Positions 6,441-55,084 of a DNA stretch of 64,000 bases are shown in pieces. The position numbers were made by a program, and so were the translations under genes. Location: the IMG/VR virus record IMGVR_UViG_3300045988_107814, positions 154,922-218,921 of that record. One strand, given 5' to 3'. How positions within the stretch are numbered: the stretch's first letter is position 1; each line of letters starts with the position of its first letter. A model generated the notes under the pieces. It was not told the origin of the DNA. It saw nothing but the letters and a program-made list of their open reading frames with translations, and did not search any database. The DNA comes from a virus.

Positions 6441-7724
6441 TTAGTTTTGATTAGAATTCATCTGTCTGATCTTATCCATAATAGAAGTAGTAGCCGTAGA
6501 AGATTGAAGTCTAGATGCTTCTTCCAGATACGACAATTCATTATACAGATAAGTTACACATTCAGTTTCAAAGATATCTAAGAATTCTGGATCTGTAATA
6601 AGCTTATTTTTAAACTGCTTTTGAGAGAATTTCTTATCATCTCTTTCACCAAAATACAGATATGCACCAGCACCTTTAACTCTTCCTGCATTCTTAAGCA
6701 TCATATACAATGACAAGTCAGGATCAAATCCAGTTTTATAATTAAGAACAAGATCAACAGCAGAACTCATTCCACTTGCACCAGCTCTAGACTTTACATT
6801 TGATACAATTACATGAGCACCATCAATACCGAATTCCTTATCTGCCGTAAGTTTATCACTATCATCAATTCTAAATACATTATTAGCGAGATAGAGAGGA
6901 GTTACACCACCAGGAATAGTTTCGTCTTGCTTCAGGAATGCTGTCTGAGATTTAGTATGCTTAAATACATTAATTTCTACCTTTTGTGTAATATGGTTTA
7001 CACTAAGGATAATGATATTTGCTTCTTTGATAAGCTGATTACATCTTCTAAACAACTGAGCCAATGCTTTAGCTGTAGCAGTTGTAGACATTTGACCACT
7101 AAGTTGTTCTTCTTCAGATAATTTAGCAGATACAAGCAAAGGAATAGAATCAATAATATAAACAGTCGGCTGGAACTTAGTAATTGACTGTCCATAATCA
7201 TCAACCATACCAGTATCATATCTGAACTTATCTTCGTTAGCAAGCTTTACATCATGAATAGCTTTGATTTGAAGATAAACAGATTCAATTGTAATACCAG
7301 AGTTTCTTACTTTTACTTTAGATTTATACTGTTCTCTAGTGAATCCAGTAAGAGCACTACCTCTTTCATCAAGCATACCACCCTCAAGCAAATCAATAAA
7401 CATAAGCCCATGATCAAAGTTTCTAATAATATTGGCACCAATCTGATATACAAAAGTAGACTTACCACATCCAGATCTACCAATAAACATATTAGAAGTG
7501 CCGTCAAGAATACCTACAGAATCATACTTAACTACACGACCATCACTCAACTTAACAGTTCTTCTGTATCCATTTTTATAATCAAGAGAAAGAAATCCTG
7601 TTGAGTACATTACATCGCTTTCTGCCGTTCTCATAACAGAAATATTTTTGGTTTTAGCTAGACTATCTTGAATTTCTAGCATTAATTCATCAGCATTATT
7701 AGTTAAAACATTTGTATTTGACAT
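6441..7724 (-). CDS. UvsX/RecA-family recombinase
   Basis: Walker A GRSGCGKSTF and Walker B VYIIDSIPLL. The blocks LSVNHITQKV, IPGGVTPLYLAN and NVKSRAG...GFDPDLSLY are colinear with T4 UvsX (IAINHTYETQ, GGGTGPMYSAD, VEKSRTV...GIDPYSGLL). Confidence 0.85.
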   Translation of the reverse strand: MSNTNVLTNNADELMLEIQDSLAKTKNISVMRTAESDVMYSTGFLSLDYKNGYRRTVKLSDGRVVKYDSVGILDGTSNMFIGRSGCGKSTFVYQIGANIIRNFDHGLMFIDLLEGGMLDERGSALTGFTREQYKSKVKVRNSGITIESVYLQIKAIHDVKLANEDKFRYDTGMVDDYGQSITKFQPTVYIIDSIPLLVSAKLSEEEQLSGQMSTTATAKALAQLFRRCNQLIKEANIIILSVNHITQKVEINVFKHTKSQTAFLKQDETIPGGVTPLYLANNVFRIDDSDKLTADKEFGIDGAHVIVSNVKSRAGASGMSSAVDLVLNYKTGFDPDLSLYMMLKNAGRVKGAGAYLYFGERDDKKFSQKQFKNKLITDPEFLDIFETECVTYLYNELSYLEEASRLQSSTATTSIMDKIRQMNSNQN

Positions 7725-7790
7725 AAATAAACCTCCTCAACGTACCTATTGAGTACTTTTATTAAATAGTTTAAATACATGTAAAAAGTA

Positions 7791-7821
7791 ATCCCTCTAC
7801 ATCACTTGGATGTAGAGGGAT
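7791..7821 (-). terminator. rho-independent terminator downstream of the tubulin-like gene
   Basis: ATCCCTCTACAT / ATGTAGAGGGAT 12-bp stem, followed on the minus strand by TACTTTTT. Confidence 0.75.
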
Positions 7822-7875
7822 AGCAGCTTTACAAATAAAATAGAAAGGACTGTCAAAAATTTATTCAGAAACTTG

Positions 7876-7891
7876 ATTTACTTATATGTTA
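7876..7891 (-). promoter_or_regulatory. copy of 16-nt motif TAAC(A/T)N5GTAAA(T/G)
   Basis: Minus strand reads TAACATATAAGTAAAT, 15 nt after the tubulin stop codon. Confidence 0.4.
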
Positions 7892-7905
7892 GTATTATTT
7901 TATTT

Positions 7906-9195
7906 TTAAAAACCGTTCATATCATCTTCAGAATAAGGTTTCTTTTCATCAGACTTCTTTGCTGTGAAACCTTTTTTCTTTTCATAACCACCAGAGACAC
8001 CAGATGTATTGACACGGTTTGTTCTAGATGTAGATGATCTTCTTCTACCAGAACCAGAAGATGTTTCTCCTTCGAAATTAGCAAAGAAATCATTTGTATC
8101 ATCATCTTCAGATTTTTCTTCTTCATGATGTGTTTCTGTTACCATATTAGAAATAGAATCGAAGAAGTCATCCTGCTTTTCAATCTCTTTTCTATTCTGG
8201 TACTTAGTATAGATATCATTAAGTTCATCCTTAGGAAGATTGATACCAGATGCAATAATTCTTACATATTCAGGAAGATCAGATTCACACTGACGATGAA
8301 TAAAGAACTCCTCAATATCTGTATTACCACAAAGCTTCTTTTTAATAGAAGTAAAGTTAGTATCTACAACATCTAGATTATCATCAGAGATATTCATATA
8401 TACACCGATCTTTGTAGCAGATGGTTCGAAATCGAGAGAAGTATTATAGTCAATTGCATCAGATACGATCTGTTCAAACTGAGAAGAATTCTTTAATCTC
8501 TTATCGATATTAACTTCTGTTACAAACATCATACCTGGATTAGTGATTAACTTATAATGGTCTTCATCATCAATATTCTGCTCAGAGTCTACAACATCAT
8601 AAGCACTAATAATCTTAAATGCTTTAGAGATATCATCATTAGCCATCTTTTCAGCAGTAAATGTATTATTAGTTTTATCAAGATACTTCTTATTGGATAC
8701 AGTTCTGATTACAAAATCTCCACCATTAAGATCCTTGAAATATTCAATAGTATTCTGTAATCCTCTTGTATCAGTTTCAAATCCAGTAATCAATGTAATA
8801 ATTACTGGAACTCTCAAATGTTTAGGAATAGCAGTCTTGATAAACTTAGCAAGAATAACGGATGCACCACTACCAGAAGCACCTTCTGTTGTAGCAATGA
8901 TATTTACATATTGATATTTACCTTCAGGAAGTAGGCTAGGAATAGAATTAGGATTCTCTCTAAGATAGTCTAACATAAGACTTTTAGCATATCCTCTATC
9001 CTTACCGCAGCCAGCATTAGGATCTGGATTAATAATAATAGTATTAATATTATTATTACGATATTCATAAGGAATATCTTTCTGTGTGGAGTTTACAATA
9101 CAACAGTCATCAATCTTCAATGTACCTTCTTCAATACAATGAATCATAGCTTTTGTTGCACCTTGACCACAAGCAAAAGTATAAGAGTTGTTCAT
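7906..9195 (-). CDS. FtsZ/tubulin-superfamily GTPase (PhuZ/TubZ/FtsZ-like)
   Basis: Blocks colinear with FtsZ: FACGQGATKAM (T1 GGGGxN region), GCGKDRGYAK (GLGAGANP region), ATTEGASGSGASVILAKF (tubulin signature GGGTGTG), VPVIITLITGFETDTRG and NIDDEDHYKLI (NLDFADV). Low-complexity C-terminal linker ending in SEDDMNGF. Confidence 0.87.
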   Translation of the reverse strand: MNNSYTFACGQGATKAMIHCIEEGTLKIDDCCIVNSTQKDIPYEYRNNNINTIIINPDPNAGCGKDRGYAKSLMLDYLRENPNSIPSLLPEGKYQYVNIIATTEGASGSGASVILAKFIKTAIPKHLRVPVIITLITGFETDTRGLQNTIEYFKDLNGGDFVIRTVSNKKYLDKTNNTFTAEKMANDDISKAFKIISAYDVVDSEQNIDDEDHYKLITNPGMMFVTEVNIDKRLKNSSQFEQIVSDAIDYNTSLDFEPSATKIGVYMNISDDNLDVVDTNFTSIKKKLCGNTDIEEFFIHRQCESDLPEYVRIIASGINLPKDELNDIYTKYQNRKEIEKQDDFFDSISNMVTETHHEEEKSEDDDTNDFFANFEGETSSGSGRRRSSTSRTNRVNTSGVSGGYEKKKGFTAKKSDEKKPYSEDDMNGF

Positions 9196-9201
9196 ATAAA
9201 A

Positions 9202-9345
9202 TTACTCCTTTTCTTTTTTGTCAGATTCTTTTTTCTTATCAGAATCTTCAATATTTTTCTGTTCACTTTCATTAACGGGTGTAAAACCAAACTGACCAGC
9301 TGGATAACCTTGTTCGTTAATTACACCGAATTTGGATTCAGACAT
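9202..9345 (-). CDS. small hypothetical protein (47 aa), translationally coupled to the tubulin-like gene
   Basis: Not in the ORF track (<60 aa). GGAGG 8 nt upstream of ATG 9345. MSESKFGVINEQGYPAGQFGFTPVNESEQKNIEDSDKKKESDKKEKE. Its last codons AAGGAGTAA supply the SD of the next gene. Confidence 0.45.
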   Translation of the reverse strand: MSESKFGVINEQGYPAGQFGFTPVNESEQKNIEDSDKKKESDKKEKE

Positions 9346-9395
9346 TTTTAGTACCTCCTTTTTATTAATTTATATATTAGTTATGATGACAGTAA

Positions 9396-9427
9396 ATATC
9401 CGTATGTGATTTAACACATACGGATAT
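9396..9427 (-). terminator. 13-bp hairpin in the region upstream of the small ORF/tubulin operon
   Basis: ATATCCGTATGTG atttaa CACATACGGATAT; only a weak T tract (TTACTG) follows on the minus strand. Confidence 0.45.
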
Positions 9428-9477
9428 AGAGAATAAAAATGAAAATGTTTAAACTTTACAGGAGAAATCCTTTTTGG

Positions 9478-9493
9478 ATTTACTTATATGTTA
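9478..9493 (-). promoter_or_regulatory. copy of 16-nt motif TAAC(A/T)N5GTAAA(T/G)
   Basis: Minus strand reads TAACATATAAGTAAAT, 8 nt after the stop of gene 9501-10220. Confidence 0.4.
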
Positions 9494-9500
9494 ATACTTT

Positions 9501-10220
9501 TTATTTTTCTATTCTCTTCTTTTTCATACTTAATGTGTAAGGAGTCATATAATCCTCTTCTAATAAGTTAGTCATAATACCAGATCCAATCAAATAAACA
9601 TCAACTGTGTTTCTTGCAACTTGATTAGATTTATCAGATGTAAGATCTTTTAAAGATACTTGACCAGTTGCATTAATTTGGTTATACATCTTATTCTTAG
9701 CTTCCATATCATCTGCTTTAGCACGAGTAAACTCTTTTATTGTAGCATCCATATTCTGTAATACAAGAGACTCTAGTTCTCTATCGGATTCAACACCTTT
9801 AGAGTTACCTACAATAGCACCAGTCTTCGGGTTTCTAACAGTAATATCTGTATTATATCCAGATTTCTTAGTAACTAACTGTTTAAGTTTTTTAAGATTG
9901 AGATATCCAATCATAGCTTCGTTATTAGAGTTTACAGCAACTCCATCACTATTAGTATAAATACTTGGAAGTTTAATTTTCTCTAGTACTGGTACATTAA
10001 TAGCTTTAAGAGCATTAATACATTTAGTAGGATTAAGTTCTCTATCAAATGCAGTAGTCTGTAATCTGAAAGGTAATCTTCTTTTACAGAATTCCATAAA
10101 TTGATTGTCAGACATTTTAGAAAACATTTCTTTATAGAAGTTAGAATTAGCTTTTGTAGGGTCCATTGCATCAAAAAATTTATATATAAGTGCTTCAGCC
10201 TTTTTTCTTTGTGCTGTCAT
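9501..10220 (-). CDS. free-standing RNA polymerase beta-subunit C-terminal fragment homolog (degenerate)
   Basis: Colinear with the last ~210 aa of bacterial RpoB. [24 protein letters not shown] matches [41 protein letters not shown] matches [16 protein letters not shown], and [15 protein letters not shown] matches [15 protein letters not shown]. C-terminal [10 protein letters not shown] matches GINIELEDE. GEME is replaced by DRELE. Own SD (AAAGGAGGG) and own flanking terminator. Confidence 0.7.
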   Translation of the reverse strand: [239 protein letters not shown]

Positions 10221-10271
10221 TCTATTACCCTCCTTTGAGTATATTATAAATATGTTTTAGAATACAAAAAA

Positions 10272-10302
10272 GAAGGATAAAGAGATCAACCCTTTATCCT
10301 TC
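10272..10302 (-). terminator. rho-independent terminator after gene 10325-11185
   Basis: GAAGGATAAAG / CTTTATCCTTC stem followed on the minus strand by TTTTTTG. Confidence 0.75.
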
Positions 10303-10324
10303 CGCACAAGCTACAGTTAGAGTT

Positions 10325-11185
10325 TTATTCTTCTACTGCGGCAAGACAAATTGATGTGATTTCATAATTAGCGTTATATGACACATTATAATACGCCGTC
10401 TTACCAGTTCCGTGCAACAAATTCGATATATCCATAATCCAATTATAAACAGCAATTTTATTATAATCGTTTTTAGTACGATTAATCATTACTTTATCAT
10501 AAGTCTTATTAGGATTAATAAGTCTATTATCCAACATTACTCCTACAATTTTTTCAAGATCTGTATTAAATTGTGTCAGGCTGTTGTTAAGACTTGTAAT
10601 ATTATCGTTGATTGTAGCATCTTCAATATCTTTATTTATTTTGACATTTGGTTCATTCATATTAAAATTACGATTTTCTATCTCTTTCAACAAGTCCATA
10701 GTAGGAACGTTTTTAATTGTAATACTATGATTAAACGTTATCGATAAAGATTCGGTAATATCTAAAACATTATCATCTGTTTCATATTCTCCATAATTAT
10801 GATCTGTAAAATATTCAATTACTTGATTAAACGAATCATCAATATGTTGAATAAGTTCGTTTACCCCAAATTCAGCATCTTTGATAGATACATTAAACAG
10901 AGGAATATTTTCAATTGTGTCTGTTTCATTATCGAAATAAGGCTGTTCAGTTTCAAGCTTATTGAATGAAACTTCGCAAGTTACGTTATCTTTGAATCGA
11001 TTAATATAATCAATAATTTCAGTGAAATCTTTAACAAATTTGCTGTTTTCTAATACGTTTTTAATATACTCTGTGTATGATGATACATCACACTTATCGA
11101 GAATTCCCACTTTATCAAAGACCGATTGACTCGGACCATAGCAAAGTGTAAAATACAGGTTTACATTTCTTTTTAAAGTTTTCAT
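10325..11185 (-). CDS. hypothetical protein (Asn/Asp-rich)
   Basis: 286-aa ORF, AAGGAG SD upstream of ATG 11185. Confidence 0.75.
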   Translation of the reverse strand: MKTLKRNVNLYFTLCYGPSQSVFDKVGILDKCDVSSYTEYIKNVLENSKFVKDFTEIIDYINRFKDNVTCEVSFNKLETEQPYFDNETDTIENIPLFNVSIKDAEFGVNELIQHIDDSFNQVIEYFTDHNYGEYETDDNVLDITESLSITFNHSITIKNVPTMDLLKEIENRNFNMNEPNVKINKDIEDATINDNITSLNNSLTQFNTDLEKIVGVMLDNRLINPNKTYDKVMINRTKNDYNKIAVYNWIMDISNLLHGTGKTAYYNVSYNANYEITSICLAAVEE

Positions 11186-12875: not shown

Positions 12876-12924
12876 AACAATAGAGAGGACATTTAAGTCC
12901 TCTCTATATTTTTCTTTTTATTTA

Positions 12925-12992
12925 TATATTATTATAGTGATAATATAGGATACGGAAATCGTTATAAAGTAACTCGTCCTATATATTGGAGG
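12925..12992 (+). promoter_or_regulatory. class-B promoter box plus ~55-nt conserved leader, copy 1
   Basis: TATATTATTATAGTGATAATATAGGATACGGAAATCGTTATAAAGTAACTCGTCCTATATATTGGAGG. Recurs at 35331-35400 (minus) and 62498-62556. Confidence 0.55.
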
Positions 12993-18922: not shown

Positions 18923-19036
18923 TTTTATTACCTCCATCATTCATTTATAGATATGTTTAAGAGGTAGTAAAAACATACGCAATGCGTTCATTAATCAACA
19001 TTAAAATAAAAGAATGAAATTAAAGGAGGTCGTTTT

Positions 19037-19909: not shown

Positions 19910-19985
19910 TGGTTGGGATAGCTGGATTTGAACCAGCGGAATGACGGAGTCAAAGTCCGTTGCCTTACCACTTGGCTATATCCCA
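19910..19985 (-). tRNA. tRNA-Gln (anticodon UUG)
   Basis: Cloverleaf on the minus strand. Acceptor TGGGATA/TATCCCA, D arm GCC-AAGTGGTAA-GGC, anticodon stem ACGGA/TCCGT with loop CTTTGAC, and T arm GCTGG-TTCAAAT-CCAGC. Discriminator A and encoded CCA. Very close to bacterial tRNA-Gln. Variable region appears to be 6 nt. Confidence 0.85.
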
Positions 19986-23361: not shown

Positions 23362-23439
23362 ATAAATACCTCCAATTATTTTATTTATTAAGCTGTTGTT
23401 GCTTAATCATTTTTATAATATATAGACATATCAAAATTT

Positions 23440-33959: not shown

Positions 33960-34074
33960 TATAACAACCTCCAATACTTTAATTTCTCTATCTATATTAA
34001 TTTATTGTTTGTAGTGTGGTATTTTAATACAAAAAATAATCGTCAGATTACCCATTACGTTAGAATACGAAAAA

Positions 34075-34136: not shown

Positions 34137-34709
34137 TCAGTCTTTAGTAGATTCTTTTTTGTTTTTATTACACGAACAAGTATGATCAACATAAATATTT
34201 TTATATAACTTATCACAAATATAATAATCTGTATTGACCATGACAATATTATTTTCAAGGGATATTAATTTATCAGCCACTTCAAAATTAAGATCAAAGT
34301 AAAGATCTGTCATCCATTTTCTAACCATCTCATGTTCACGATCAAATATAATAAATACCGGAGGAGTATTTTTAAATTTACGTGACACAATATATTCCTT
34401 GACTAGTTCACACACAAGGCTGATCGGAACATAGTCATTCCATTGTTTGACAATGATAAATTTTTTTACAACTCCGTGGCAAGCATTATAAATATTTCCT
34501 CGAATAGTTCTGAGAATGATAAGTTCTTTTACAACTTCGTAGCAAGCATCATAAGAATCTTCTCGAATAATTCCGAAATAGTTTTCAAATGCTTTGTCGT
34601 CTTCTCGATTTTTAGTAGTATCAATAATTTCGATATCTACATTGTGAGAATCTTTAGTGATTCTCACATTTTCAATACCACTACAAGGGTATGTTGTAGT
34701 AAATTCCAT
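34137..34709 (-). CDS. hypothetical protein with three tandem ~20-aa repeats; paralog of 34715-35326 in its C-terminal half
   Basis: AAGGAGG SD. Repeats are DSYDACYEVVKELIILR, IYNACHGVVKKFIIVK and ISLVCELVKEYIVSR. Shares the block ...IF(I/C)...(R/K)(K/L)W(M/V)TD... with the upstream gene. Confidence 0.65.
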   Translation of the reverse strand: MEFTTTYPCSGIENVRITKDSHNVDIEIIDTTKNREDDKAFENYFGIIREDSYDACYEVVKELIILRTIRGNIYNACHGVVKKFIIVKQWNDYVPISLVCELVKEYIVSRKFKNTPPVFIIFDREHEMVRKWMTDLYFDLNFEVADKLISLENNIVMVNTDYYICDKLYKNIYVDHTCSCNKNKKESTKD

Positions 34710-35330: not shown

Positions 35331-35400
35331 ACCTCCATATATAGGATGAGTTACTTTATAACGATTTCCGTATCCTATATTATCACCGTAATAATATATA
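35331..35400 (-). promoter_or_regulatory. class-B promoter box plus conserved leader, copy 2
   Basis: Minus strand reads TATATATTATTACGGTGATAATATAGGATACGGAAATCGTTATAAAGTAACTCATCCTATATATGGAGG. Confidence 0.55.
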
Positions 35401-35408
35401 AGTTTAAA

Positions 35409-49951: not shown

Positions 49952-50042
49952 TATTTCCTCCGATAGGATGTTGAATCTTTATAACTGTTTTACAGTATCC
50001 TATATTCATAATTATAATATATAAATAAGTTATAGCAAATTA

Positions 50043-52897: not shown

Positions 52898-53016
52898 TTT
52901 AATTCCTCCTTTGTGATATATAATTATATGATTGTTGAAATGGGTTATAATTACATATTATAATATTGAAGTTAGTAATGAACTAATCTTTAAATATAAT
53001 AGAAAGGAGTGGTAAT

Positions 53017-53469
53017 ATGGCTGTTGTGATTACAGATTCAAAAAACGAAAGCCAAAAACCACAAAAGTATGTTTCGATCAAAGAACTTAATAGATCGAAT
53101 ACAAAACCAATCAATATCGTACCATCTAAGACACTTATTATCAATGAATTGAGTGTTGAGATTGTACAAGACTTTGATGAAGATATTGATTTTAGAATCA
53201 ATACAATTCCAGGAATGCTGTCTGATAATAAGACAATTCCCAAATTAGACATTACTGCAAAAGAAGAAATTGTCTTTGACGATGATCTTACTTTGGCAAA
53301 ATTAGAAAGTATTATTCGTCGATGTGGTATTCTAGACGAGTATAAAGAATACTTTACTAATGATCCAGATATCGTTATTAATCAATACTATCTTGTTATT
53401 AAGAAGAAGTATAAATATTTTAACGAGTTCAGAGAAGGCATTATGATTGCTGGTGATATTATACAGTAG
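53017..53469 (+). CDS. hypothetical protein
   Basis: 150-aa ORF, AAAGGAG SD. Antisense ORF 52983-53252 rejected. Confidence 0.7.
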   Translation: MAVVITDSKNESQKPQKYVSIKELNRSNTKPINIVPSKTLIINELSVEIVQDFDEDIDFRINTIPGMLSDNKTIPKLDITAKEEIVFDDDLTLAKLESIIRRCGILDEYKEYFTNDPDIVINQYYLVIKKKYKYFNEFREGIMIAGDIIQ

Positions 53470-53509: not shown

Positions 53510-55084
53510 ATGGCACAACAATCAGAAAATTATGATTACCTTTATGAGAGACTACAGGAATATTACAATGTTTCTGTAACAGGTAATTATCCGTTTAATA
53601 TTCCTTTGAATAAGAACGGACAACCGATTTATAAGTTCGAGTCTAGAATCGTTCCTATCGATTTTGACGAGACTTGTAAGAATGATATTATCAAGGGTAT
53701 CGGTTTCTATATTTCTAAGAAGCAAGATATCAAGAAGGATGTTAGATCTATTGATAGTATCTTTTCATCTAGATTTGGTATGCAAATTGATGACATGACA
53801 CCTTTTGGAGACGTTTATAAATGTAAATGTGGAAAGACAATGATGAAAGTAAACAATGGATTGTTTTGCCCATTTTGTCACACAAAGGTTAGATATGTTG
53901 CAAATGACTTCTCTATTACTGGTTGGATTAAGATAAATGATTTTGAAATTATCCATCCAAACATGTTTAAGAAGTTAATCTCATTTATGGGAAAGAAAGT
54001 TTTGGATTCTATTATTAATATAGATACTAAAACAAACGAGGATGGTTTTGAAAATGTAAAAGAACCATCCAAAGCAAGTCCGTTTTCTGGTCTTGGCTTT
54101 ATCAAGTTTAAAGAGAGATTTGATGAAGTTATGGAATTCTACAGAAATAAGTACAAATCTAATGCAAATAAGATGGCTTATTATGAAGACATTATGCAGA
54201 ATAAGAAAATTGTATTTTGTCATTGTCTTCCAGTTTATACTTCTCAGTTAAGACCATTCTCTATTAAACAGAATAAATTTAACTTTGAAGGTAATAATGC
54301 ACTTTATAATCTTATTGCTGGATTAGTTGCTAAGCTTAATAAACACAATATTTATTCTCGTAATAGAAATAAGCCGACTAATCAGATTCTGTATGATATT
54401 CAAATGAAGTATATGGAGATCTATGCAGATCTTGAAAAGGTAATTGCACAAAAGAAAGGTTATACTAGATCTCTTAATGGTGGTAGATATAACTTTACTG
54501 CAAGAAATGTAATTATTCCTGATCCTGATTTAAGGATTGATGAGATCATTCTTCCATATCCATCATTGATAGAATTAATGAGTCTTACTATCATTAATAT
54601 TCTTACAAAGACATATAGTCCGTCAGAAGCTTATAGAATTTGGGATGAAGCTCGTATTGAGTATAATCCTATGATTGCTGATTTGATACAGAATATTATT
54701 GATAGTCAATATGTAGCAATTACACTTAATCGAAATCCTAGTATTTCTCCGTCTTCTATTATTCAGCTTCATGTAGTTGGAGTAACTAAAAATGACACTT
54801 ATAGTTGTCATGTACCTCACGAGATTCTCAAATCAATGGGTGCAGACTTTGATGGCGATACTTTGAATATTCTTCTTATTATTAATGATGAATTCTTATT
54901 AAATGCTGCTAAGTTGTTTAATCCTAGACTCAGTATGCAAATATCATATAATGATGGAATGTTTAATGGTAAGATGTCATTGCAGACCGATACAATGATC
55001 TGTATTAATTCATTTACTCAGCTTGGAATTGATAGTATTACTGATGAAGAGTATGCTATGATTGAAGCTTGTCAAAATTCATAA
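53510..55084 (+). CDS. multisubunit RNA polymerase beta' subunit, N-terminal fragment with catalytic DFDGD loop
   Basis: Zinc ribbon YKCKCGK...CPFCH. LNRNPSISPSSIIQLHV matches LNRAPTLHRLGIQAF. Catalytic MGADFDGDTLN matches NADFDGDQM. Confidence 0.9.
   Translation: MAQQSENYDYLYERLQEYYNVSVTGNYPFNIPLNKNGQPIYKFESRIVPIDFDETCKNDIIKGIGFYISKKQDIKKDVRSIDSIFSSRFGMQIDDMTPFGDVYKCKCGKTMMKVNNGLFCPFCHTKVRYVANDFSITGWIKINDFEIIHPNMFKKLISFMGKKVLDSIINIDTKTNEDGFENVKEPSKASPFSGLGFIKFKERFDEVMEFYRNKYKSNANKMAYYEDIMQNKKIVFCHCLPVYTSQLRPFSIKQNKFNFEGNNALYNLIAGLVAKLNKHNIYSRNRNKPTNQILYDIQMKYMEIYADLEKVIAQKKGYTRSLNGGRYNFTARNVIIPDPDLRIDEIILPYPSLIELMSLTIINILTKTYSPSEAYRIWDEARIEYNPMIADLIQNIIDSQYVAITLNRNPSISPSSIIQLHVVGVTKNDTYSCHVPHEILKSMGADFDGDTLNILLIINDEFLLNAAKLFNPRLSMQISYNDGMFNGKMSLQTDTMICINSFTQLGIDSITDEEYAMIEACQNS

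What the first reader, a model, noticed from the sequence alone, without database searches (positions are those of the whole stretch)
7791..9497. FtsZ/tubulin-family GTPase operon in a Gram-positive-type phage that also carries a fragmented multisubunit RNAP
ORF 7906-9195 matches FtsZ block by block (T1-like ACGQGATKAM, GCGKDRGYAK, tubulin signature EGASGSGASV, NIDDEDH in the T7/activation region). It then has a ~70-aa Ser/Gly/Arg/Glu-rich linker ending in an acidic-aromatic tip, SEDDMNGF. That is the tail layout FtsZ, PhuZ and TubZ use for polymer or partner contacts. Phage tubulins are established in nucleus-forming jumbo phages of Gram-negatives (alongside split RNAPs) and in clostridial TubZRC plasmid-prophages. 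Here the gene sits in a lytic replication module (next to UvsX and an RNAP fragment) of a phage with Firmicute-style signals, and by eye it looks more FtsZ-like than PhuZ-like. This could be a nucleus-like or DNA-positioning system outside the known host range, or a decoy of host FtsZ. The gene is translationally coupled to an unannotated 47-aa ORF (9202-9345).
Basis: partly seen in the sequence, partly recalled or inferred. Interest (0 to 1): 0.75.

Follow-up and report, generated by a model that had tools for sequence, protein, structure and literature searches.

The report
Phage tubulin with small partner protein
An uncultured giant phage of gut Firmicutes carries a two-gene operon for a divergent tubulin/FtsZ-type filament protein and a tiny, always-co-occurring partner protein, a third kind of phage cytoskeleton that has not been described or studied.

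Summary
ORF 7906-9195 (minus strand, 429 aa) is a tubulin/FtsZ-superfamily GTPase. All catalytic motifs are conserved, the predicted fold is confident, and an ~85-aa mostly disordered tail ends in an acidic-aromatic tip.

It is not an FtsZ, PhuZ or TubZ orthologue. It founds a separate, uncultured family of ~159 clusters at 50% identity, on 120-340 kb viral contigs. By profile it is about equally close to phage G gp138, c-st TubZ and FtsZ, and far from PhuZ.

The main new result concerns the 47-aa upstream ORF. It is a conserved partner, found upstream on the same strand in 82 of 87 sources, down to 28% tubulin identity. Its family has at least 1355 unnamed clusters. It is predicted as a beta-hairpin plus a charged helix, the layout of the filament cappers MciZ and stathmin.

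The phage belongs to the AR9/PBS1-like lineage, which has a multisubunit RNA polymerase and no nucleus. Cultured members lack the module. No chimallin, TubR, centromere repeats or plasmid copies were found where testable.

Best reading: a phage-encoded filament system for intracellular organisation during lytic growth, regulated by its own small partner. The nucleus reading is unsupported, but only about a third of the genome was visible.

The parts
9478..9493 (-). Distal promoter-like 16-mer TAACATATAAGTAAAT, starting 7 nt after the stop of the upstream RNA polymerase-fragment gene. It fits the AR9 late (non-virion polymerase) consensus AACA-N6-TA.
   Evidence: Conserved in clade relatives whose flanks have diverged. 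An exact second copy is at 7876-7891, and a 1-mismatch copy of its first 14 nt lies about 10 nt upstream of the tRNA-Gln. Consensus taken from PMC5312081. Promoter function is inferred.
9396..9427 (-). Conserved stem-loop (13-bp perfect stem in the window) between the distal motif and the small ORF. It could be a terminator for the upstream gene or a 5'-UTR element.
   Evidence: 15 predicted pairs, 8 with compensatory double changes across 9 relatives, and the core pairs are never broken.
9368..9396 (-). Proximal conserved element TTTACTG-N-AACTAATATATAAAT, resembling a sigma-A -35/-10 pair, directly upstream of the ribosome-binding site.
   Evidence: Conserved in the clade alignment. The 15-mer with up to 2 mismatches occurs 9 times against 3.4 expected. 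Function is inferred.
9354..9359 (-). Shine-Dalgarno AGGAGG of the small ORF, 8 nt before its ATG.
   Evidence: Read from the sequence; conserved in relatives.
9202..9345 (-). Small partner gene, 47 aa: MSESKFGVINEQGYPAGQFGFTPVNESEQKNIEDSDKKKESDKKEKE. Predicted beta-hairpin (aa 7-12 and 18-23) plus a charged helix (aa 26-46).
   Evidence: Homologues lie upstream on the same strand in 82 of 87 sources. The family has at least 1355 clusters, all unnamed. AF2 pLDDT 86.5. No hit in Pfam, PHROGs, PADLOC or PDB.
9205..9210 (-). AAGGAG ribosome-binding site of the tubulin gene, embedded in the last codons (K-E) of the small ORF. This is a translational-coupling arrangement.
   Evidence: Read from the sequence...GAAAAGGAGTAATTTTATATG.
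8176..9195 (-). Tubulin/FtsZ-family globular core (aa 1-340): GTPase domain with T1 (aa 8-17), T3 (62-67) and T4 (104-110), helix H7, T7 loop N207-I-D209-D-E-D212, the C-terminal activation domain, and a long helix H11 (322-339).
7906..8175 (-). C-terminal tail (aa 341-429) plus the stop codon. It contains a DDFF motif (aa 343-346), a second DFFxxF motif in a short helix (370-378), a basic Ser/Arg-rich linker, and the PYSEDDMNGF tip.
   Evidence: AF2 predicts disorder. A D-x-F-F-type motif is present in 60 of 65 unique family members, and 46 of 65 have an acidic-then-hydrophobic C-terminus.
7876..7891 (-). Second exact copy of TAACATATAAGTAAAT, starting 14 nt after the tubulin stop. It is the presumed promoter for the next unit (UvsX).
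7791..7821 (-). Intrinsic-terminator-like hairpin (13-bp perfect stem, 5-nt loop, T-rich tail) downstream of the tubulin gene.

Best explanation
The region is a compact two-gene operon of an uncultured, AR9/PBS1-related jumbo phage of low-GC Firmicutes. It runs from conserved upstream signals through the 47-aa gene and the translationally coupled 429-aa gene to a terminator.

Shown or strongly supported: the large gene encodes a self-assembling tubulin/FtsZ-superfamily GTPase of a previously undescribed phage family. The full nucleotide-binding set and the T7 activating residues are invariant, which argues that it polymerises head-to-tail with GTP turnover.

Inferred:
- The DDFF motifs just after helix H11 are proposed to make subunit-subunit contacts, as the tails of PhuZ and TubZ do (from memory).
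- The distal acidic-aromatic tip is proposed to be a docking peptide for cargo or an anchor.
- The small protein is proposed to be the filament's dedicated regulator. Its conserved beta-hairpin would bind the tubulin by extending a beta-sheet at, or capping, a longitudinal interface, as MciZ does on FtsZ and the stathmin N-cap does on alpha-tubulin. Its charged helix would project outward or lie along the subunit. This would set filament length, polarity or nucleation.
- The pair is proposed to act during lytic infection to position or organise the large replicating genome and/or the virion assembly sites. That would be PhuZ-like in purpose but without a chimallin shell.
For: - Superfamily identity: motif invariance, family profile against FtsZ structures E=4e-11, fold match E~1e-16 and TM 0.75-0.82 normalised to the target, PF00091 in 33 of 36 members.
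- Separate family: no match in GenBank phages or plasmids, only phage G gp138 at 22% identity. About 159 clusters at 50% identity reach E<=1e-30. There are 78 IMG/VR loci, most on contigs above 100 kb and up to 342 kb.
- Lineage core gene: the order polymerase fragment, small ORF, tubulin, UvsX, polymerase beta, ligase is kept across 20 tubulin clades.
- Partner protein: 82 of 87 sources have it, always upstream and on the same strand. It is absent from the loci examined around phage G gp138, c-st TubZ and phiKZ PhuZ and from the AR9 and LPJP1 syntenic regions. Conservation is concentrated in the hairpin. The hairpin-plus-helix model has pLDDT 86.5. MciZ and stathmin precedents: PMC4929429, PMC7491153.
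- Coupling: 6-nt gap with the ribosome-binding site inside the upstream ORF.
- Lytic-module context, and AR9-type AACA-N6-TA motifs shared with UvsX and the tRNA.
- No TubR, no centromere repeats, no plasmid copies.
- No chimallin where it could be tested.
Against:
- The small model has no significant structural neighbour, so the capper analogy rests on topology alone.
- Conserved gene order in a conserved block could partly reflect shared ancestry rather than function. In most clades the two genes are 60-1700 nt apart, sometimes with a glucosaminidase gene between them.
- Expression timing is inferred only from motifs.
- About two thirds of the genome was not visible, so a shell protein or a partition locus elsewhere cannot be excluded.
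- The window protein alone is below the Pfam threshold.
Confidence: 0.5

Rival explanations
1. PhuZ-like spindle serving a nucleus-like compartment. The filaments would centre or rotate a proteinaceous or membranous replication compartment whose shell protein is encoded outside the window, or is not homologous to chimallin.
For: Tubulin and multisubunit polymerase co-occur in jumbo phages (PMC7824862). The family is essentially confined to very large viral contigs. About 150 kb of the genome was not examined. The acidic tail motifs resemble the PhuZ tail logic (comparison from memory).
Against: The chimallin HMM finds nothing in the window or in 1.75 Mb around 86 related tubulin genes (best E=4.9). 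No window ORF of 400 aa or more hits phrog_4795. The gene upstream of the gp055 homologue, where chimallin sits in chimalliviruses, is only 150 aa. The closest cultured relatives, AR9/PBS1 and PALS_2, lack chimallin and a nucleus (PMC10299810, PMC7598289). Similarity to PhuZ is the weakest of all subfamilies tested.
Confidence: 0.13
2. TubZ-like type III segregation. The filaments would partition the phage genome as an episome during a carrier or pseudolysogenic state, with the small protein acting as the adaptor in place of TubR.
For: Profile similarity to c-st TubZ is among the highest (E=5.2e-10, shared NSTxKD and GCGKER motifs, best TM normalised to the target 0.82). The layout of a small upstream gene followed by the tubulin gene mirrors tubR-tubZ. 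The review PMC7824862 cites tubulin/FtsZ-like proteins as segregating jumbo-phage genomes during pseudolysogeny.
Against: The small protein has no similarity to TubR (probability 0.1%). It has no predicted DNA-binding fold and is acidic or mixed-charge. There are no iterated centromere-like repeats near the operon, and the 64-kb window holds only six short tandem repeats, none near it. No family member is on any of 72,556 plasmids. None of the 25 window ORFs scanned against PHROGs was annotated as an integrase, ParA/ParB or repressor, and the context is a replication/transcription block.
Confidence: 0.13
3. Host-division interference. The phage protein would co-assemble with or cap host FtsZ (a decoy or poison), possibly together with the small peptide, which would act like the phage FtsZ inhibitors Kil or Gp0.4. 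This would block division and enlarge the cell.
For: By plain HMM search the best solved-structure matches are FtsZ. The linker-plus-terminal-peptide tail layout resembles FtsZ. Small phage proteins that target FtsZ exist, for example T7 Gp0.4 (PMC13423816). The small protein has the topology of the FtsZ capper MciZ (PMC4929429).
Against: Identity to FtsZ structures is only 14-18%. The window protein does not hit TIGR00065 at all. The tail tip PYSEDDMNGF is unlike the FtsZ C-terminal peptide that binds FtsA, SepF and ZipA (from memory). A poison would not need invariant T7 catalytic residues over a 28-100% identity range. The strict pairing of the small protein with the phage tubulin, not with the host gene, points to the phage polymer as its target.
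Confidence: 0.1

Closest known systems
TubZ of Clostridium botulinum phage c-st (CST189; TubZRC type III partition system)
   Same: Tubulin/FtsZ fold with a long C-terminal helix. hhalign E=5.2e-10 over 285 columns. Shared INTSKKD/NSTxKD and GCGKER motifs. Foldseek E=2.7e-16 with the best TM normalised to the target (0.82). A small gene lies directly upstream. The host range is Firmicutes.
   Different: There is no TubR-like winged-helix adaptor, no tubC-type repeats, no plasmid or prophage-plasmid context, and about 17% identity. The gene sits in the replication/transcription block of an AR9-like phage.
PhuZ of Chimalliviridae (phiKZ gp039, 201phi2-1 gp59)
   Same: A jumbo-phage-encoded tubulin in a phage with a split multisubunit RNA polymerase. 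The acidic, aromatic C-terminal tail motifs could mediate filament contacts. The likely purpose is intracellular positioning during lytic growth.
   Different: This is the weakest sequence relation: hhalign E=1.6e-5 over the N-terminal 139 columns only, PDB profile E=0.046, and the window protein does not hit phrog_4733. No chimallin partner was found. The lineage is the non-nucleus AR9-like branch. PhuZ has no known dedicated small partner (from memory).
Bacterial FtsZ
   Same: GTPase core motifs, with T7 N207/D209/D212 falling at the same residue numbers as in E. coli FtsZ (from memory). Best plain-HMM matches among solved structures, E=4e-11. A disordered linker followed by a terminal peptide.
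   Different: hhalign to E. coli FtsZ gives E=4.5e-8. The window protein does not hit TIGR00065 and no FtsZ_C domain is detected. It has an extra helix H11, which from memory is typical of CetZ and TubZ. The tip differs from the FtsA/SepF-binding peptide (from memory). The T3 loop is GCGKDR rather than GLGAG. The gene is not in a division gene cluster.
Bacillus phage G gp138 ('putative FtsZ-like cell division protein')
   Same: The only cultured-phage relative. hhalign E=4.2e-10 over 304 columns; tblastn with family member P0105 gives 22% identity, E=2e-6. The host is a Firmicute and the phage is a jumbo phage.
   Different: It belongs to a different PHROG (phrog_17961). No small partner ORF was detected in the locus. 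The genome context and lineage differ (no AR9-like synteny), and it is uncharacterised itself.
MciZ (B. subtilis, 40 aa) and the stathmin N-cap plus helix, as analogues for the 47-aa protein
   Same: Very small size. A beta-hairpin that, in the known cases, extends a beta-sheet or caps the longitudinal face of FtsZ or tubulin, followed in stathmin by a helix (PMC4929429, PMC7491153).
   Different: There is no sequence or significant fold match. The helix here is a short Lys/Glu-rich segment. Binding is untested. It is encoded with its own tubulin, not as an inhibitor of a host polymer.

Membership tests
Tubulin/FtsZ superfamily | Glycine-rich T1 and T4 nucleotide-binding loops (tubulin signature GGGTG[ST]G-like) | tested here: met
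   The window protein has ACGQGATKA and EGASGSG; distant members have GVGAAGNKA and EGGTGSG. G105, G108 and G110 are invariant.
Tubulin/FtsZ superfamily | T7 loop with catalytic acidic residues (NxDxxD/E) after helix H7 | tested here: met
   N207, I208, D209 and D212 are invariant in 36 sequences.
Tubulin/FtsZ superfamily | Two-domain fold: Rossmann-like GTPase domain, helix H7, C-terminal activation domain | tested here: met
   AF2 pLDDT 81.6, with most blocks of residues 1-340 above 90 (range 84-96). Foldseek probability 1.00, E~1e-16, TM normalised to the target 0.75-0.82 against CetZ, TubZ and FtsZ.
Tubulin/FtsZ superfamily | Pfam PF00091 at the gathering threshold | tested here: inconclusive
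   The window protein scores 23.5 bits against a cutoff of 33. At E<=0.01, 33 of 36 family members match, best 1.5e-12.
FtsZ (cell-division orthologue) | Matches the NCBIfam equivalog TIGR00065 and carries an FtsZ_C domain | tested here: not met
   The window protein has no TIGR00065 hit; 15 of 36 distant members hit weakly. No FtsZ_C domain appears in Pfam scans.
FtsZ (cell-division orthologue) | C-terminal conserved peptide that binds FtsA, SepF or ZipA, and location in a division gene cluster | tested here: not met
   The tip is PYSEDDMNGF, and family tips are [DE]-x-[FY]. The neighbours are UvsX and polymerase fragments. The FtsZ peptide consensus is recalled from memory.
PhuZ (Chimalliviridae spindle tubulin) | Membership of the PhuZ sequence family (phrog_4733) | tested here: not met
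   The window protein has no PHROG hit at E<=0.1. phiKZ PhuZ scores 4.6e-118 on phrog_4733. hhalign to the family gives only E=1.6e-5 over 139 columns.
PhuZ (Chimalliviridae spindle tubulin) | Co-occurrence with the chimallin shell protein in the same genome | tested here: inconclusive
   None was found in the 64-kb window, in 1.75 Mb of related flanks, or at the syntenic position.
TubZRC type III partition system | TubR winged-helix DNA-binding adaptor encoded upstream of tubZ | tested here: not met
   The upstream gene is a 47-aa hairpin-plus-helix protein. hhalign against c-st TubR gives probability 0.1%.
TubZRC type III partition system | Centromere (tubC/tubS) of iterated repeats next to the operon | tested here: not met
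   Only two-copy chance-level repeats and two hairpins occur in 7600-10400, and there is no array near the operon.
TubZRC type III partition system | Carried on a low-copy plasmid or plasmid-prophage | tested here: not met
   No tblastn match in 72,556 plasmids with two family members. Whether the phage has a carrier state cannot be tested here.
AR9/PBS1-like jumbo phages with a multisubunit RNA polymerase | Split beta/beta' polymerase subunits most similar to AR9, PBS1, PALS_2 and LPJP1, and shared gene order UvsX, non-virion polymerase beta, NAD ligase | tested here: met
   Polymerase beta is 30-31% identical to PBS1, AR9 and Staphylococcus jumbo phages, against 23-25% for chimalliviruses. 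The synteny is seen in AR9. Four polymerase fragments lie in the window.
MciZ/stathmin-type filament cappers (small protein) | Beta-hairpin that binds the longitudinal face or C-terminal sheet of the tubulin-family partner | not testable with these tools

The most novel reading that the evidence does not exclude
This would be the first viral tubulin that comes with its own dedicated, genetically coupled filament regulator, a 40-60-aa hairpin-plus-helix capper or nucleator analogous to MciZ or stathmin. Together they would form a chimallin-independent cytoskeleton that organises replication or assembly of AR9-like (possibly uracil-DNA) jumbo phages in gut and oral Firmicutes, a third and mechanistically distinct phage cytoskeletal system.
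Probability: 0.3. Interest if true: 0.8.

Novelty: new variant of a known kind. Interest (0 to 1): 0.62.

Why it matters
Phage tubulins are currently understood through two models. PhuZ is a spindle for the chimallin nucleus in phages of Gram-negative hosts. TubZ drives plasmid-prophage partition.

This family is large: about 159 clusters at 50% identity, on viral contigs from what appear by sample number to be human gut and oral metagenomes. It is absent from every cultured phage and plasmid searched. It sits in the branch of polymerase-encoding jumbo phages that reviews describe as lacking a nucleus or PhuZ.

It would therefore show that a tubulin cytoskeleton is useful to giant phages without a protein shell. 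It would also extend phage cytoskeletons to uncultured Bacilli-class hosts.

The obligate small partner offers a minimal, tractable tubulin-regulator pair for studying how filament ends are controlled. It also gives names and a testable function to at least 1355 clusters of unannotated small proteins.

Tried and rejected
1. Co-folding the two proteins. Adding the short peptides to the fusion alignment made MAFFT misplace them inside the tubulin.
2. A chimallin profile scan of IMG/VR was impossible because the alignment has no conserved stretch. It was replaced by a local HMM search and a synteny test.
3. Walking along the 219.6-kb contig to see the whole genome was not possible.
4. Single-sequence searches were uninformative: phmmer against PDB found nothing, PHROGs nothing, and tblastn against GenBank phages nothing.
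5. The first regex for the small ORF missed most loci. An iterated HMM on stop-to-stop translations replaced it.
6. Foldseek and a PDB profile search of the 47-aa protein gave nothing significant; PADLOC gave nothing.
7. Classifying expression timing. The operon lacks the ATATATTAT early-type core that is enriched upstream of other genes. It has an AACA-N6-TA motif 133 nt upstream. The short motif is only 2-fold enriched in intergenic DNA, so timing is left as inferred.
8. The 307-aa and 252-aa neighbours seen in other clades were considered as extra components. The 252-aa protein is a membrane-anchored glucosaminidase (endolysin-like) and the 307-aa protein has no annotation. Neither was detected in the window or in the loci of its clade, so neither is counted as part of the core module.
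9. Recent capture of a host ftsZ was rejected because of the depth of the family (down to 28% identity), its conserved phage synteny and its failure on TIGR00065.
Full report
**1. The observation**

Single-sequence evidence is weak:
- Pfam Tubulin PF00091 scores E=7.6e-5, 23.5 bits, below the 33-bit gathering score.
- There is no PHROG hit and no phmmer hit in PDB.

The protein has 128 metagenomic relatives, including 99%-identical copies. One of these lies on a 219,593-bp contig. In a 36-sequence alignment spanning 87-31% identity, the invariant columns fall on the nucleotide-binding and activating loops: G62/G64 (T3), G105/G108/G110 (T4, EGASGSG) and N207-I208-D209...D212 (T7).

The family profile finds solved FtsZ structures at E=4e-11, and 33 of 36 members hit PF00091. 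An AF2 model (pLDDT 81.6, pTM 0.77) has the full tubulin fold plus a long helix H11 at 322-339. It matches CetZ2, c-st TubZ, many FtsZ structures and Bt TubZ at E about 1e-14 to 1e-16, with TM normalised to the target up to 0.82. Residues 347-368 and 379-416 are predicted disordered.

**2. Which tubulin**

Fold alone does not separate the subfamilies. Profile comparisons with the family alignment give:

| Reference | hhalign E-value | Aligned columns |
|---|---|---|
| Phage G gp138 | 4.2e-10 | 304 |
| c-st TubZ | 5.2e-10 | 285 |
| E. coli FtsZ | 4.5e-8 | 279 |
| phiKZ PhuZ | 1.6e-5 | 139 (N-terminal only) |

With c-st TubZ the family shares the NSTxKD and GCGK(E/D)R motifs. phiKZ PhuZ has a related GMGKDR at the same position, and FtsZ has GLGAG there.

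The window protein hits neither TIGR00065 nor the PhuZ PHROG. The best viral structural neighbour is an automatically named 'Cell division protein' of a metagenomic myovirus (29% identity, E=4e-36). PhuZ models score about 1e-12.

No GenBank phage (50,697 records) or plasmid (72,556 records) carries a detectable relative of the members tested, apart from phage G gp138 at 22% identity. An exhaustive search of 1.84 billion cluster representatives finds 159 clusters at E<=1e-30. This is therefore a distinct and sizeable family known only from uncultured material. The reviews in the held library recognise only the TubZ and PhuZ phage subgroups (PMC7950403, PMC12908238, PMC13282480).

**3. The phage**

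The window encodes the following:
- NAD ligase, UvsX, topoisomerase II/gyrase subunits, Dda and DnaB helicases;
- a prohead protease and virion proteins;
- a tRNA-Gln;
- four fragments of multisubunit RNA polymerase beta/beta'.

The 749-aa beta fragment is 30-31% identical to the non-virion polymerase beta of PBS1, AR9 and the Staphylococcus jumbo phages, and 29.6% to that of Listeria LPJP1. It is 23-25% identical to the chimallivirus proteins. AR9 keeps the same order of UvsX, polymerase beta and NAD ligase, but has no tubulin or small ORF upstream of UvsX. LPJP1 also has no tubulin-sized gene there.

The literature describes this branch as encoding the polymerase but lacking chimallin, a pseudo-nucleus and PhuZ (PMC10299810, PMC7598289).

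Host clues are as follows:
- GC content is 30%.
- Ribosome-binding sites are strong AGGAGG.
- The only hits in species-representative genomes are a human-gut 'Bacilli bacterium' MAG, whose 212.7-kb contig is evidently the phage itself, and an uncultured Solobacterium MAG.

**4. The small ORF is a conserved partner**

An iterated HMM over stop-to-stop translations finds a homologue of the 47-aa ORF upstream of the tubulin gene, on the same strand, in 82 of 87 sources. Four of the five misses have the tubulin gene at a contig edge. This holds down to 28% tubulin identity and across 20 tubulin clades.

The gaps range from 10 nt to 8.5 kb, with a median of 257 nt; 19 pairs are within 60 nt. A profile search finds at least 1355 clusters of 37-84 aa. 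None has a meaningful name (one carries a spurious 'acetyl-CoA carboxylase beta subunit' label), and they lie on contigs up to 287 kb.

Conservation is concentrated in G-V-I-x-E-Q-G-[DY]-L-G-L-G-F, with E11, G13 and G20 invariant. A Lys/Glu/Asp-rich segment follows. With a 63-sequence alignment AF2 predicts a beta-hairpin (7-12, 18-23) plus a helix (26-46) at pLDDT 86.5.

The protein has no match in Pfam, PHROGs, PADLOC or PDB. It is unrelated to TubR. It is absent from the loci examined around phage G gp138, c-st TubZ and phiKZ PhuZ.

In the window the two genes are 6 nt apart, in the same frame, and the tubulin's AAGGAG site lies within the last codons of the small ORF. This is a classic coupling arrangement.

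**5. Operon signals**

In clade relatives whose flanks have diverged, three upstream elements persist:
- TAACATATAAGTAAAT, which fits the AR9 late (non-virion polymerase) consensus AACA-N6-TA (PMC5312081). It recurs exactly just after the tubulin stop, ahead of UvsX, and its first 14 nt recur with one mismatch about 10 nt upstream of the tRNA.
- A stem-loop with 8 of 15 pairs showing compensatory changes.
- TTcACTG-N-TAATATATAAAT, just before the ribosome-binding site.

A terminator-like hairpin follows the tubulin gene. The short AACA-N6-TR motif is 2-fold enriched in intergenic DNA. It sits 21-26 nt upstream of several replication and transcription genes. Transcription by the phage's own non-virion polymerase is therefore plausible, but it is inferred.

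**6. The tail**

Across 65 unique family members, 60 carry a D-x-F-F-type motif in the last 130 residues, usually right after H11 and often repeated. Forty-six end in an acidic-then-hydrophobic tip, and 43 end in F, Y or W. The window clade adds a basic RRR/KRR cluster and the tip PYSEDxxxGF.

By analogy with PhuZ and TubZ (from memory), the proximal acidic-aromatic motif probably contacts the neighbouring subunit and the distal tip probably docks a partner.

**7. Tests of the alternative readings**

*Nucleus.*
- phiKZ chimallin defines phrog_4795, and no window ORF of 400 aa or more hits it.
- A six-member chimallin HMM finds nothing (best E=4.9) in the window or in 1.75 Mb of sequence (the window plus about 10 kb either side of the tubulin gene in 86 related loci).
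- In the five chimalliviruses examined (phiKZ, Noxifer, Desertfox, Eowyn, Goslar), chimallin lies immediately upstream of the gp055-type polymerase subunit. Here the gp055 homologue (53510-55084) is preceded by a 150-aa ORF.
- The remaining ~150 kb of the genome could not be read.

*Partition.* There is no TubR, no repeat array and no plasmid copy.

*FtsZ decoy.* Identity to FtsZ structures is 14-18%, the tail tip is unlike the FtsZ peptide, and the T7 residues are invariant.

**8. Most likely mechanism**

Shown:
- a conserved, GTPase-competent tubulin-family protein;
- a near-obligate small partner;
- translational coupling in this clade;
- core-gene status in an uncultured AR9-like lineage.

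Inferred:
- The tubulin forms dynamic filaments.
- The small protein's hairpin binds the tubulin by sheet extension or end-capping, as MciZ does on FtsZ (PMC4929429) and the stathmin N-cap does on alpha-tubulin (PMC7491153). This would control filament length, polarity or nucleation.
- The system organises the replicating genome and/or assembly sites during lytic growth without a chimallin shell.

I give this composite reading about 0.5. The rivals are a nucleus spindle (0.13), episome partition (0.13) and host-division interference (0.10).

**9. Novelty**

This is a new variant of a known kind, a phage-encoded tubulin cytoskeleton. It is a separate family, in the 'non-nucleus' polymerase-encoding lineage and in Firmicute hosts, with a dedicated small partner that no described phage or plasmid tubulin system has. 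I found no paper in the held library describing either protein.

Noticed in passing
window 12920-12985 (+), 35340-35403 (-), 49965-50026 (-): Three near-identical elements of about 60 nt (tTTATATATTATtatagtgataatataggatacggaaatcgttataaagtaactc) lie upstream of ORFs 12986.., ..35338 and ..49662. The core ATATATTAT equals the core of the AR9 early (virion polymerase) promoter and is 9-fold enriched in upstream regions. They may be promoters with a conserved leader.
   Followed up: partly
window 10242-10257, 52922-52937, 33995-34010, 23383-23398 (all -), 18996-19011 (+): AR9-late-type AACA-N6-T[AG] motifs sit 21-26 nt upstream of the starts of polymerase-fragment, DnaB and topoisomerase genes. 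This suggests the phage uses AR9-like non-virion-polymerase promoters, and so possibly uracil-containing DNA.
   Followed up: partly
L005 9728-9985 and L006 5437-5694: In relatives at 49-50% tubulin identity, an 85-aa Tad2-like gene (PF11195, an anti-Thoeris sponge family) is inserted between the small ORF and the tubulin gene.
   Followed up: no
e.g. L025 9066-9995, L051 8705-9460; L003 11140-12027, L029 11273-12199: In 9 tubulin clades a membrane-anchored glucosaminidase (PF01832, endolysin-like) lies between the small ORF and the tubulin. In 13 clades an unannotated ~300-aa protein follows the tubulin directly. Neither was detected in the window or in the loci of its clade.
   Followed up: partly
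L094 (CAADXH010000018.1, 212,719 bp): A GTDB species-representative MAG labelled 'Bacilli bacterium HGM10607' contains a 212.7-kb contig carrying this phage module at 86% tubulin identity. It is evidently a jumbo-phage genome binned as bacterial.
   Followed up: no
window 19910-19985 (-): A tRNA-Gln(UUG) is about 90% identical to short stretches in Staphylococcus and Enterococcus 'phage' records (probably host-like tRNA). It is preceded by a 1-mismatch copy of the first 14 nt (TAACATATAAGTAA) of the 16-mer motif.
   Followed up: partly
window 34448-34573: A 63-nt tandem duplication (2.0 copies, 82% match) lies inside or next to ORF 34137-34709.
   Followed up: no
L059, L062, L087: These IMG/VR loci carry a second identical copy of the small ORF on the opposite strand, about 8.6 kb away. 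This is probably an inverted duplication or a fold-back assembly artefact.
   Followed up: no
window 53017-53469 (+): A 150-aa ORF occupies the position directly upstream of the gp055-type polymerase beta' fragment, where chimalliviruses encode chimallin. Its function is unknown and it was not analysed.
   Followed up: no
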